NCBI RefSeq assembly: GCF_035594765.1
Contig: NC_085845.1
Span: forward strand, 83,074,024-83,138,023
Length of the DNA: 64,000 nt
Direction: 5' to 3'
From: Anolis carolinensis
Lineage: Eukaryota
Of the stretch, positions 44,601 through 47,600 are shown piece by piece. Each line of letters starts with the position of its first letter. Within the stretch, counting starts at the first letter, position 1. Made by a program: the position numbers.

Positions 44601-47600
44601 ACAGAATCGGGGGGGGGGGGATTCAAAACGAAAACAAAATAGGTTTCACCCTAATATTTTCTAAGATTTACTTATATTTATGAAAATATAGGTTGATCCT
44701 ATGTAGAAGTTCACAGCATTAACATTACGGCAAATACTACAACTGTTCCAGAGTTCCACTGACCTTGGTTTTAACATTTCTCAGTTTGTCTGTGGCAATG
44801 AAAAAGGCAGGTTCATTTTTGTGGACACTCAACCAGCAAAGAGTGAGAAATCTAGCTAAGCCATCTCGTCTCCTTTCTGCCATTCAGAAAAGTAACAACT
44901 GACCGGATGTATTAACACCATTTAATAAAGATAATAATAATGGCTTGGGCAGATTAAGCCTCTCATTTCCATATCTGCATAAAAGACATGGAATAGGCTA
45001 AATATGTCCTGTAGGTTTGACCCATATGTTCTTCTCACAATCAAAGAAATCACAAGCCAAATTTAAATTTCATTACAATTTATTGACCCATTTATGTAAA
45101 TGATTTTAAAATGCCAATATAATTGGTTCTTTTCTATTTATTCTTAATACGAAAATTAAAACAAACCATAATTCAGCACAATTTTGATGTAATTTTAGAC
45201 ATTCAGAGATGAAATGTGACCCTTTATAATCAAGTATGGGCAAACTTCGGCCTGGTAGGCTGTTAGGAAATGTGGGAGTTGAAGTTCAAAACACCTGGAG
45301 GGCCGAAGTTTGCCCATACTTGCATCATAATATAATGAGGAAGAGGCCATAGTTCTGTGTCAGAGCCAATATTTACATACAGAACATTCTTGATACGTAA
45401 CTCTGGTGCCTCAAGGAAAACTCTTAGAGGAAGGAACCACTACTCATTCAGATATTACTGGACTCCAAATTCAGTCCATCTGGAGATGCTACAGGGTCCC
45501 CAACTCTGTATCAAAGAACATCTGTTTCTTCGTATATCATGTTTCAATAATGTCAAGGGATCTTTTCTTTTCAGCAGATAGGAAGGTTTGGACACTGGTT
45601 GCCCAGTGACATGCAAAGTTCTAGAATTCCCACAGTCATTCACTTTATGGCAGTTGAAGGACAGCATTCTCTCCTAATCCAAGCAAGCTGTCTTCTTACT
45701 TCAAGATGCATCCCCTGTTCTCTCTGCTACTCCCCTTGTGTTCAGTCTTTTCTCAGTATGCAGGAGCAATGTGTCCTTATTTATTATTACCACCATTGTT
45801 TTTCATCTGCTCTGACCAAGAAAACCATATTTATCAGCAGCAAGACAACAAACACCAGACTTCACATTTATGGGGCAGGATTACTAAAACGTATTATGTA
45901 AGAACTGCAGGGTTTATTTCAAGAACTGGGAAGCAACAGGCAGAACTGCCATCTTTCTGCTGCTGGTACTGGAGCTCTCCTTTTACCGGCTACTGCAACA
46001 AACATAAAACAGACTATGAAATCATGAACCTAAGCGAAAATGGGAAATGCCACCCAGAACAGTTAGATTTGAAATGGACAGCATCCAAAGATCCAGTTCA
46101 AACAGTGCAACCCAAAATACTTCAGAAAAATACTGTTTATTACGAGTATTTTCACCTGGTTGTTAGAAAAGAAAGCCACTTAGCACATGCAAACCAAATG
46201 GTACAGGTACGGCTTATCCCTGCTCTTTTGCTGAACAACACATACATTGAAAAATGTGGGATAGCAGTAATACCAACAGAAATATTTCCAGTGGTAATAC
46301 CTTCCAAGCAGTATGCTTTGACAGCACACATTGAAGTGTGTGATGTCCATGGAGCATATAACCATATAACTTTACAGACAAAAGTATATGACCCATCAAA
46401 AGGCCAGCGAACAGAGGTATTTCTGAATGAATTACAAAGTTTGATTAGTGGACCAACAGATCCAATAACAGCTGTTGTGAAAAGTAGGGATTACTTTAGG
46501 GCACTTGATGTCATCTACATAGTGGCTTCTATTTTAAATGATATAGAAGTTACACAAAGATTACATTCCGCGAAGACTGAGCTGCGGGAACTCCTTCTAA
46601 ATAGGTCTGCAGGAATTCCTACTACAAGTGTAACGGGAGCAAATCAAATGATCTCAAATATTTTTCAAATAACACATGAAGTTGCAGAGATAAACAGAAA
46701 ATCACAACTACTTGCAATGAAAAAAATCAAAGAAGTTATCGAAGAACTGAAAAAGCATGGCAACAAAGATTTGGGATTGAAAGGAAGAGAGATGCTTGGC
46801 AATGCTATTCTTGAAGGACTGTCCAATGTACAGAAAGCATCTTTGTTAGAAGGTGGAAATATCCACATAAATGGGGTTAAGGAAACCATTTATATGACCG
46901 AGATATTAGCAGATCTAGTCTTAGAAGGTAAAATTCCAGAAGAAAATGAAACTATTATGGAAGCCAAAGACTGGACTATCACATTAAGAAAAAATGAAAA
47001 AGGAGGTATTTCTGATCCATCCTCCAGGAGAAGAGATGGCAAGAACTACTTTTACTTCAAAATGAAACAAGAGGATAGTGATGAATTAACAAGAGATGCT
47101 GTAGTTTCCACGATTCTTTATGAGTTTGATAATAACCCTTTTCCTTGGTTGCCGTACGCCAGTGATATCAACACAATGATAACTGGATTCAAGATGACAG
47201 GAACCAAATATAATGGTGACAGGATTGGGATCGTGCCTGATGTTGCTGAAATGATCATGACTAGAAAAGACGAGAAAAGGAATGCCACTTTTCAGGTCAT
47301 GATCAGACATGATAAAAAACTCCCTAAAGCCACTGGAGAATTTAGTGTTGAAGTACTTAGGCAATCCAAAAACATTTTTATTCAGATTGTGACAAATAAG
47401 AAAACTGTTTTCCAGGTCTTCATATATCCGGGTCACAAGGTCAGCTATGATCCCATAGCTTTTTTCAGTGTTTCCTATAATAAGACGTCAGTGCCAATGG
47501 GAAAGTATTCTAGTGATGGTGACTGTGCATTTAAGGCCCCTTATATAGTTTGTCTTTCCCAGATATTGCTCAGATCCATATTCCAAGACAGCAGAGCAGA

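What the first reader, a model, noticed from the sequence alone, without database searches (positions are those of the whole stretch)
45706..46400. Copy C lost ~800 aa of ectodomain through two in-frame deletions
Seen by manual alignment to A. C follows A up to CCWY (C Y88, A Y87) and then jumps to FTGYC (C F93, A F739), about 647 aa removed. It jumps again from PTEIF (C F194, A F838) to PVVIPSKQYAL (A P999), about 160 aa removed. Both junctions keep frame and the signal peptide. The 8-mer GTAATACC flanks the second junction (46267-46274 and 46294-46301). Inference: two separate frame-preserving deletions suggest selection for a minimal-ectodomain polycystin that keeps GAIN/GPS, PLAT and the channel but lacks most of the N-terminal and REJ region.
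Basis: seen in the sequence. Interest (0 to 1): 0.72.

Follow-up and report, generated by a model that had tools for sequence, protein, structure and literature searches.

The report
Anole PKDREJ lost its REJ ectodomain
One of three tandem lizard copies of the sperm polycystin gene PKDREJ has lost about 785 amino acids of its outer domain through two in-frame gaps, while its membrane and channel core stays strongly conserved, so it looks like a working receptor stripped of its namesake domain and not a dead gene.

Summary
ORF C (45706-51204, 1832 aa) matches copies A and B at aa 1-~90, 93-194 and 195-end, exactly as described. Both junctions are in frame.

C is not a cut-down copy of A. It is the anole ortholog of the canonical squamate PKDREJ. 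Against the Sceloporus ortholog (2611 aa) it lacks residues 86-710 and 811-971. Eleven of 15 non-anole orthologs have no gap of 25 aa or more.

The retained core is constrained. It is 90.6% identical to the Anolis sagrei ortholog, against 85.3% for full-length paralog B. Changes avoid conserved sites, and neutral drift predicts about 5 stop codons per lineage.

The N-terminal remnants look vestigial:
- Three residues invariant in all 34 other sequences are lost (W95G, C180Y, N183K).
- Evolution is accelerated (20:3 against Sceloporus).
- pLDDT is below 50 for aa 1-234.
- The first deletion ends inside a beta module.

The A. sagrei model keeps a piece the window lost and lacks pieces it kept. 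This points to lineage-specific erosion, not selection for a designed minimal form. In-frame junctions are what purifying selection on the downstream core would leave. The GTAATACC repeat is not mechanistically informative.

A Tiliqua model lacks the same 161 aa. This is unexplained.

The parts
45706..51204 (+). ORF C: single-exon, 1832-aa truncated PKDREJ ortholog (stop codon included)
45706..45981 (+). N-terminal stub, aa 1-92. It holds a hydrophobic leader (MHPLFSLLLPLCSVF...) and the first ~85 ortholog residues. It equals Sceloporus 1-85.
   Evidence: It is 52% identical to Sceloporus. pLDDT is 22-39. No signal-peptide predictor was available.
45979..45984 (+). Junction 1 (codons 92/93). 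Sceloporus residues 86-710 (625 aa; A ~88-738) are missing.
45982..46287 (+). REJ fragment, aa 93-194 (Sceloporus 711-810; Pfam REJ profile 127-199). It carries W95G, T138I, C180Y, N183K and R193I at otherwise conserved columns.
46285..46290 (+). Junction 2 (codons 194/195, TTT|CCA). Sceloporus residues 811-971 (161 aa; A 839-998) are missing.
46267..46274 (+). Left GTAATACC copy (codons V-I-P 188-190). This is native left-flank sequence (orthologs read SVIP).
46294..46301 (+). Right GTAATACC copy (codons V-I-P 197-199). This is native right-flank sequence. Orthologs and A. sagrei have G where C has V197.
46288..46407 (+). aa 195-234: the last beta hairpin of the former REJ region. It is low-confidence in C and evolves fast in both anoles.
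46408..47871 (+). GAIN-like domain, aa 235-722: helical subdomain 236-406 and beta subdomain 415-722. The conserved C..W..C..HCIC pattern is present, but there is no HL(T/S).
47923..48012 (+). First transmembrane helix, aa 740-769
48067..48387 (+). PLAT domain, aa 788-894
   Evidence: (E 1.3e-19)
49684..50304 (+). Polycystin (TOP) domain, aa 1327-1533
   Evidence: (E 2.4e-50)
50320..50976 (+). PKD_channel region, aa 1539-1757
   Evidence: (E 5.1e-51)
18640..26388 (+). ORF A: full-length PKDREJ-like paralog (2582 aa), used as comparator
34757..42427 (+). ORF B: full-length PKDREJ-like paralog (2556 aa), used as comparator and rate control

Best explanation
C is the anole ortholog of the canonical, intronless squamate PKDREJ gene, a polycystin-1-family protein. 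In the anole lineage its extracellular N-terminal region came under relaxed constraint and was eroded by genomic deletions. In this genome the net result is two gaps, Sceloporus residues 86-710 and 811-971.

What remains is a leader peptide, then about 140 aa of vestigial and probably unstructured remnant. After that come an intact GAIN-like domain, TM1, PLAT, the remaining transmembrane helices, the polycystin/TOP domain and the channel-like region.

The downstream core is still needed, so only in-frame deletions that keep the leader could persist. That explains the frame preservation without any selection for a designed minimal form.

Inferred, not shown:
- The protein still works as a polycystin-1-type membrane subunit, probably in male germ cells as in mammals.
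- Any ligand-facing role of the REJ region is lost, or is carried by the full-length paralogs A and B.
For: Orthology:
- In a tree of 36 sequences and 1698 columns, C plus the A. sagrei protein P0014 are sister to Sceloporus P0004 inside the canonical clade. Both nodes have support 1.0.
- Of 15 non-anole members of that clade, 11 have no gap of 25 aa or more against Sceloporus.
- Of the 33 other hits, 32 carry Pfam REJ. Only the A. sagrei ortholog does not.

Constraint on the core:
- Over aa 195-1832, C against A. sagrei C is 1476/1630 = 90.6% identical. B against A. sagrei B is 1320/1547 = 85.3% on the same columns.
- Over aa 761-1832 the figures are 93.3% against 83.4% (profile).
- Differences between the two anoles avoid columns that are invariant in 14 other orthologs. 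They hit 8/378 invariant against 64/693 variable columns (p 2.6e-6) in 761-1832. In 195-760 they hit 7/110 against 74/447 (p 0.006).
- Leave-one-out loss of conserved residues in 761-1832 is 11/378 in C. That is inside the range of full-length orthologs, 4/382 to 23/401.
- Neutral substitution to the observed 4.7% per-lineage amino-acid divergence gives a mean of 5.4 stops. None of 300 runs was stop-free.

Relaxation in the remnants:
- W95G, C180Y and N183K fall at columns identical in all 34 other sequences.
- Unique changes in the REJ fragment, C against Sceloporus, are 20:3, 19:5 and 16:3 with three outgroups. In paralog B they are 9:9, 9:6 and 7:8. Fisher p for C against B is 0.016 and 0.28 for the two pairings computed.
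- Conserved-site loss is 5/32 in the fragment and 3/12 in aa 195-234. This is the highest of all species except A. sagrei, which shows 4/12 in aa 195-234.

Structure:
- The C 1-780 model has pLDDT below 50 for aa 1-234 and 57-90 from about 235.
- In the A model, with an alignment of similar depth, the same segment scores 55-87.
- The right breakpoint of deletion 1 (A739) lies in strand E179-185 of that model.

Different erosion in the sister anole:
- P0014 aa 3-52 best match Sceloporus 127-176 at 66% identity. That stretch is lost in the window, and there is no hit in C.
- P0014 lacks the leader and the REJ fragment that C keeps.
- P0014 resumes at the same right boundary, Sceloporus P972.
Against: - No expression, transcript or protein evidence could be obtained.
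- No DNA of any other lizard was available, so dN/dS was not computed and the breakpoints are defined only at codon resolution.
- The stub is not significantly more accelerated than the rest of C (42:13 against 146:77, p 0.15; 41:12 against 164:79, p 0.19).
- The whole ectodomain, including the GAIN region, is about 2-fold accelerated (72:33). This could also reflect adaptive change.
- Changes in the REJ fragment still avoid invariant columns somewhat (5/32 against 26/68, p 0.036), so the fragment is not fully neutral.
- The A. sagrei protein is an automatic gene model starting at a non-conserved Met. Its odd N-terminus may be an annotation product.
- Low pLDDT could partly reflect the 30-sequence alignment, which is gapped in that region.
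- Two searches for independent short protein fragments spanning the junctions found nothing.
Confidence: 0.6

Rival explanations
1. Adaptive remodelling. The short ectodomain was positively selected, for example as a sperm-surface protein under sexual selection that shed its egg-coat-binding module. The remaining stub would have a new role.
For: - Both gaps are in frame and the leader is kept.
- The anole stem branch is long: 0.138 against 0.083 for Sceloporus.
- Acceleration of the ectodomain is specific to C and not seen in paralog B.
- PKDREJ is the least constrained TRP-family gene in sauropsids (omega 0.25; passages of PMC10776941).
- Deletion 2 corresponds roughly to one beta-sandwich module.
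- A skink model lacks the same 161 aa.
Against: - Deletion 1 ends inside a beta strand and leaves a partial module that is predicted unfolded.
- Universally conserved W, C and N residues in the remnant are lost.
- The sister anole keeps different remnants, which is not what one selected design predicts.
- No codon-level test of positive selection was possible.
Confidence: 0.17
2. C is a gene on its way to loss. The ectodomain deletions inactivated it, and the open frame is only not yet broken.
For: - The namesake domain is gone.
- The A. sagrei model has no leader peptide.
- The GAIN region has an elevated loss of conserved residues: 11/98 in C and 8/98 in A. sagrei, against 1/99 to 9/105 in others.
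Against: - The 1832-codon ORF is open although about 5 stops per lineage are expected under neutrality, and 0 of 300 simulations were stop-free.
- The core is more conserved between the two anoles than full-length paralog B.
- Substitutions avoid invariant sites.
- Conserved-site loss in the TM core is ordinary.
Confidence: 0.12
3. Assembly artefact. The missing sequence exists in the animal but was collapsed or dropped.
For: No read-level data were available. Two searches found no independent protein fragment spanning the junctions.
Against: - There is no N in the window.
- The junctions are seamless and both in frame, with no repeat that could cause a collapse.
- No remnant lies nearby.
- The independently assembled A. 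sagrei ortholog also lacks the REJ region and resumes at the same residue.
Confidence: 0.03

Closest known systems
Full-length squamate PKDREJ orthologs (e.g. Sceloporus undulatus P0004, 2611 aa; Pogona, Elgaria, Rhineura, Python)
   Same: C sits in the same orthology group. It is 79.7% identical to Sceloporus over aa 195-1832. It has the same single-ORF structure and the same GAIN-like, PLAT, polycystin and channel domains.
   Different: C lacks Sceloporus residues 86-710 and 811-971. It therefore lacks all but 73 of the 452 Pfam REJ profile positions.
Paralogs A and B of the same window. The three tandem PKDREJ duplicates of squamates are reported in PMC7038749 (passages seen).
   Same: They lie in the same tandem array, on the same strand, intronless, with the same domain order. 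They are 44-47% identical to C over aa 195-1832.
   Different: A and B keep the whole ectodomain. They belong to separate clades that split before the squamate radiation. All members of their clades lack two short stretches in the Sceloporus 1817-1880 interval.
Mammalian PKDREJ (sperm polycystin)
   Same: It is the same family. The bat protein P0036 aligns along the whole length and roots the tree. Neither has the HL(T/S) GPS cleavage tripeptide (passage of PMC9672506).
   Different: Mammalian PKDREJ has the REJ domain. A role in sperm is known only for mammals (recalled: Sutton et al. 2008) and was not tested here.
REJ-less polycystin-1-like proteins: PKD1L3 and zebrafish Pkd1l2b
   Same: The architecture is GAIN/GPS, PLAT and an 11-TM channel-like core without a REJ domain. 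[quoted passage not shown] The best solved-structure match of the C channel region is PKD1L3 chain 7d7e_A (E 7.9e-37).
   Different: Those proteins carry lectin domains at the N-terminus and belong to other orthology groups. C reached the REJ-less state by recent deletions within the PKDREJ lineage.

Membership tests
Polycystin-1 family (PKD1-like, 11-TM) | PLAT domain in the first cytoplasmic loop after TM1 | tested here: met
   Pfam PLAT at aa 788-894, E 1.3e-19. TM1 at aa 740-769. Matches polycystin-1 chains 6a70_B and 8z6f_A over aa 738-1012.
Polycystin-1 family (PKD1-like, 11-TM) | C-terminal six-TM channel-like region with polycystin/TOP domain | tested here: met
   Polycystin_dom at aa 1327-1533 (E 2.4e-50) and PKD_channel at aa 1539-1757 (E 5.1e-51). 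PKD1L3, PKD2L1 and PKD2 structures are matched.
Polycystin-1 family (PKD1-like, 11-TM) | Eleven transmembrane helices | tested here: inconclusive
   A crude Kyte-Doolittle scan gives 9 peaks in C and 10-11 in the full-length Sceloporus ortholog at the same threshold. No dedicated TM predictor was available.
Polycystin-1 family (PKD1-like, 11-TM) | GAIN domain with GPS motif before TM1 | tested here: inconclusive
   The fold is helices 236-406 plus beta strands 415-722. The top fold hits are the BAI3, BAI2 and latrophilin GAIN domains, with probability 0.98-1.00 but TM-scores of only 0.12-0.37. Pfam GPS/GAIN models do not hit at E <= 0.01. No HL(T/S) follows the HCIC cysteines.
PKDREJ orthology group | Groups with named PKDREJ proteins in a tree, apart from the '-like' paralogs | tested here: met
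   C is sister to A. sagrei and then to Sceloporus within the clade of proteins named 'polycystin family receptor for egg jelly'. Support is 1.0 at both nodes.
PKDREJ orthology group | Complete REJ domain (Pfam PF02010) in the ectodomain | tested here: not met
   Only profile positions 127-199 of 452 are matched, at aa 96-169 (E 4.8e-08). A and B match 4-434 and 2-441.
PKDREJ orthology group | Coding region in a single exon | tested here: met
   One uninterrupted 1832-codon ORF is colinear with the orthologs.
PKDREJ orthology group | Male germ cell / sperm expression | not testable with these tools

The most novel reading that the evidence does not exclude
The REJ ectodomain of PKDREJ is dispensable and is being shed repeatedly in squamates. 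On this reading, one 161-aa beta module was excised at the same codons in anoles and, independently, in a skink. The rest of the N-terminal region was then removed by different deletions in two anole lineages. Meanwhile the GAIN, PLAT and channel core stayed under normal constraint. That would be a natural experiment showing that a polycystin-1-type core works without its ligand-facing region, with paralogs A and B possibly taking over sensing.
Probability: 0.2. Interest if true: 0.6.

Novelty: new variant of a known kind. Interest (0 to 1): 0.4.

Why it matters
Polycystin-1-family proteins are usually thought of as receptors whose large ectodomains gate or position an 11-TM core. The role of the REJ region is poorly understood.

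A naturally REJ-less ortholog, sitting beside two full-length paralogs and with its core demonstrably constrained, offers three things:
- a defined minimal construct for asking what the REJ region contributes to trafficking, partner binding and gating;
- a case study of domain loss after tandem duplication in a fast-evolving reproductive gene;
- a practical caution. PKDREJ copies are used as long-exon phylogenomic markers in squamates (PMC7038749), and a 2.4-kb lineage-specific gap matters for probe design and alignment.

Tried and rejected
1. The 8-mer as a deletion footprint: rejected. Both copies survive, each in native flank codons (left SVIP, right GIP in orthologs). Recombination between them would leave a single copy. 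The right copy begins with a window-specific G197V codon. Local 8-mer repeats are common.

2. Remnants of the deleted sequence near C, or a split gene: none. tblastn over 42428-52000 found nothing.

3. Independent short proteins spanning the junctions: two database searches found none. The 'shorter' search scored 7999 candidates. The 260-aa query scored 971 candidates of 143-455 aa. This is a weak negative.

4. The A. sagrei N-terminal piece as a borrowed exon of neighbouring paralog B: rejected. It is 66% identical to Sceloporus C but 52.8% to A. sagrei B.

5. Deletion 2 as a spliced-out cryptic intron ('exitron'): not supported in the paralog DNA. B has no GT at the left boundary. Neither A nor B has an in-phase AG at the right boundary. 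It is untestable for the C lineage without ortholog DNA.

6. Microhomology at the junctions. Only an F codon (TTT/TTC) is shared by both flanks of junction 2 in A and B, and a WY pair flanks junction 1 with both copies retained. At about 45% paralog identity this cannot be resolved.

7. General anole rate speed-up as the cause of the acceleration: rejected for the ectodomain. Paralog B is symmetric (57:47, 9:9).

No other lizard DNA was therefore examined.

10. Supplements of PMC7038749, which may hold PKDREJ alignments showing the anole gap, could not be seen.
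Full report
WHAT IS IN THE WINDOW

The window holds three long uninterrupted ORFs on the + strand:
- A, 18640-26388, 2582 aa
- B, 34757-42427, 2556 aa
- C, 45706-51204, 1832 aa

All three carry PLAT, Polycystin_dom and PKD_channel in Pfam. A and B carry a complete REJ domain (profile 4-434 and 2-441 of 452). C keeps only profile positions 127-199, at aa 96-169. The C membrane part matches solved polycystin-1 and PKD1L3 chains.

The best database relatives are lizard and snake proteins named 'polycystin family receptor for egg jelly'. 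The closest is from Anolis sagrei. I therefore take the window for an anole-like iguanian lizard, not for a human contig.

The window contains no N.

CHECK OF THE OBSERVATION

- C 1-~90 with A 1-~88
- C 93-194 with A 739-838 (45%) and B 742-841 (56%)
- C 195 onward with A 999 and B ~1000

Both junctions keep the frame. The 8-mer GTAATACC sits at 46267 and 46294.

C IS NOT A SHORTENED COPY OF A

I built a FastTree tree (LG, 1698 columns, 36 sequences, bat outgroup). It resolves three squamate clades.
- C and the A. sagrei protein P0014 are sister to Sceloporus undulatus P0004 (2611 aa), inside the clade of canonical PKDREJ proteins. Both nodes have support 1.0.
- A and B fall in the two '-like' clades and are only 44-47% identical to C.
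- Three tandem PKDREJ duplicates in squamates are already in print (PMC7038749, passages seen).

Of the 15 non-anole members of the C clade, 11 show no gap of 25 aa or more against Sceloporus. The other four are P. muralis, Tiliqua, one unnamed protein and Eublepharis, whose models have gaps elsewhere or are N-terminally short.

Measured against the ortholog, C equals Sceloporus 1-85, then 711-810, then 972-end. The gaps are therefore 625 aa (86-710) and 161 aa (811-971). tblastn finds no remnant of the missing parts between 42428 and 52000.

IS C ALIVE?

The retained core behaves like a constrained gene.
- Identity: over aa 195-1832, C is 90.6% identical (1476/1630) to its A. sagrei ortholog. 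The full-length paralog B is 85.3% (1320/1547) over the same columns. Over aa 761-1832 the figures are 93.3% and 83.4% (60-aa profile).
- Site avoidance: differences between the two anoles avoid columns invariant in 14 other orthologs. I used 14 of the 15 and left out the P. muralis model, a gapped near-duplicate of P. lilfordi. The counts are 8/378 against 64/693 in 761-1832 (p 2.6e-6), and 7/110 against 74/447 in 195-760 (p 0.006).
- Leave-one-out: C has lost 11/378 conserved residues in the TM core, within the range of full-length orthologs (4/382 to 23/401).
- Neutral simulation: substituting the C codons until amino-acid divergence reaches the observed 4.7% per lineage yields 5.4 stops on average. 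No stop-free run occurred in 300. Indels are ignored, so this is conservative.

I had no second lizard genome, so no dN/dS could be computed.

ARE THE N-TERMINAL REMNANTS FUNCTIONAL?

Several lines say they are largely vestigial.
- Lost conserved residues: within the 102-aa REJ fragment, C has replaced W95, C180 and N183, which are identical in all 34 other sequences. It has also replaced T138 (33/34) and R193 (30/33).
- Relative-rate counts, unique changes in C against Sceloporus:
  - REJ fragment: 20:3, 19:5, 16:3
  - N-terminal 92 aa: 22:10, 22:7, 24:3
  - aa 195-760: 72:33, 76:35, 71:40
  - aa 761-1832: 74:44, 88:44, 82:43
- Control with paralog B, same contrast: symmetric at 9:9, 9:6, 7:8 in the fragment and 57:47, 57:46, 45:48 in 195-760. 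The speed-up is therefore specific to C. Fisher p for C against B is 0.016 or 0.28 for the fragment, and 0.047 or 0.050 for 195-760, depending on the outgroup pairing.

Against my reading:
- The stub is not significantly faster than the rest of C (p 0.15 and 0.19).
- Its changes still avoid invariant columns to some degree (5/32 against 26/68, p 0.036).

STRUCTURE

An AlphaFold2 model of C aa 1-780, from a 30-sequence alignment, has pLDDT below 50 for aa 1-234. From about 235 it scores 57-90. It shows a helical bundle (236-406), a beta domain (415-722) and TM1 (740-769). Its best solved-structure matches are the GAIN domains of BAI3, BAI2 and latrophilin, with high probability but low TM-scores.

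A control model of A aa 560-1560, from a 28-sequence alignment, shows the region equivalent to the REJ fragment (model 180-279) at pLDDT 55-87. It lies inside a run of beta modules. On that model:
- The right end of deletion 1 (A739 = model 180) lies inside strand E179-185.
- Deletion 2 (model 280-439) starts at the first strand of the next module and ends in a low-confidence loop.

Deletion 2 removes roughly one beta-sandwich module. Deletion 1 leaves a partial module that cannot fold alone.

No HL(T/S) tripeptide follows the conserved HCIC cysteines in A, B, C or the orthologs shown. This agrees with the statement that PKDREJ lacks the GPS cleavage site (PMC9672506, passage).

THE SISTER ANOLE DIFFERS

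The A. sagrei model P0014 (1693 aa) starts at a Met aligned to Sceloporus V125.
- It keeps Sceloporus 125-175 and 205-209, then six unassignable residues.
- It resumes at Sceloporus P972, the same right boundary as junction 2 of C.
- Its first 52 residues match Sceloporus C best (66%). They match A. sagrei B less (52.8%) and have no counterpart in C.

So A. sagrei retains a piece that lies inside the window's deletion 1, and it lacks the leader and the REJ fragment that C kept.

The simplest history is inferred, not shown. Deletion 2, or at least its right edge, predates the split of the two anoles and broke the REJ region. After that, each lineage lost further parts independently.

THE 8-MER AND THE JUNCTIONS

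Both GTAATACC copies sit in native flank codons. The left reads A-V-I-P where orthologs have S-V-I-P. The right reads V-V-I-P where orthologs and A. sagrei have (V/L)-G-I-P.
- A deletion by recombination between the copies would leave one copy, not two.
- The first codon of the right copy is a window-lineage Gly-to-Val change, so the perfect repeat is probably younger than the junction.
- Exact 8-mers repeated within 40 nt occur at 178 of 64000 window positions, 11 of them in ORF C.

At junction 2, the flanks in paralogs A and B share only a Phe codon. At junction 1, both flanks carry W-Y and both copies remain. Nucleotide-level breakpoints cannot be set without DNA of a full-length ortholog.

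AN UNEXPLAINED COINCIDENCE

The Tiliqua scincoides model P0013 (2230 aa) groups with a full-length unnamed relative in the skink part of the tree. It lacks the same 161 residues, and its junction is colinear with that of C:
- C reads PTEIFPVVIPSKQ.
- Tiliqua reads PTEILPVGISSKQ.
- Ten of 13 positions are identical, with no gap.

Either the same module was excised independently at the same codons, or the skink model was shaped by alignment to an anole protein or by a modelled intron. I could not tell which.

COMPARISON WITH WHAT IS KNOWN

REJ-less polycystin-1-like proteins exist in other orthology groups. Zebrafish Pkd1l2b lacks the REJ domain that Pkd1l2a has, and the PKD1L3 entries shown in those passages list no REJ domain (PMC5318412, passages). 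PKDREJ is reported as the least constrained TRP-family gene in sauropsids (omega 0.25; PMC10776941, passages).

Four full-text searches listed no paper whose title or abstract deals with a truncated anole PKDREJ. The term pairs were PKDREJ with lizard, Anolis and squamate, and PKDREJ with REJ domain, GPS and cleavage. I read passages of four of the papers only, and supplements were closed.

The following come from memory and from no call:
- the roles of mammalian PKDREJ in sperm;
- the role of sea-urchin REJ in egg-jelly binding;
- the reported need of the REJ region for polycystin-1 GPS cleavage.

VERDICT

- The reading 'selected minimal ectodomain' is only partly supported.
- The best-supported picture is a still-functional PKDREJ ortholog whose ectodomain upstream of the GAIN-like domain is being eroded in anoles. 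In-frame junctions are a by-product of selection on the core.
- It is a new structural variant of a known gene family and of moderate interest.

Noticed in passing
protein P0013 (Tiliqua scincoides), aligned to window 46273-46311: A skink PKDREJ model lacks the same 161 aa as deletion 2 of C. Its junction is colinear (PTEILPVGISSKQ against PTEIFPVVIPSKQ), although its closest relative in the tree is full length. This is either independent recurrence or an annotation artefact.
   Followed up: partly
protein P0014 (Anolis sagrei), versus window 45706-46300: The sister-anole ortholog model has no leader and no REJ fragment. It keeps about 56 aa (Sceloporus 125-175 and 205-209) that the window's C has lost, and it resumes at the same residue after junction 2.
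   Followed up: partly
window 47760-47880 (C), with the equivalent stretches of A and B: In all three copies and the orthologs shown, about 25 residues separate the conserved HCIC cysteines from the F-L-A-G-K strand, and no HL(T/S) cleavage tripeptide is present. Pfam GPS/GAIN models do not hit.
   Followed up: partly
window 52203-52727 (-), 54058-54528 (-), 31233-31748 (+): Short ORFs show weak reverse-transcriptase (Pfam RVT_1) matches (E 2.9e-08, 7.8e-06, 3.7e-06; only the first reaches the curated cut-off). They are probably decayed retroelement fragments just downstream of C and between A and B.
   Followed up: partly
window 42350-42427 (end of B), versus 51130-51204 (end of C): B and its A. 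sagrei ortholog end about 17 aa early and lack the conserved C-terminal tail (...GLKARKxNGRKxVYLVI) that C and, in diverged form, A carry.
   Followed up: no
window ~48800-49150 (C aa ~1030-1150): All members of the A and B clades lack two stretches in the Sceloporus 1817-1880 interval that every C-clade protein has. This is a clade-specific insertion or deletion in a cytoplasmic, low-conservation loop rich in N (NNNVNNNY).
   Followed up: no
window 62001-64000 and 14001-16000: G+C rises to 0.537 and 0.492 against about 0.38 elsewhere. ORFs there have no Pfam match. These may be CpG-island-like or neighbouring-gene sequence.
   Followed up: no
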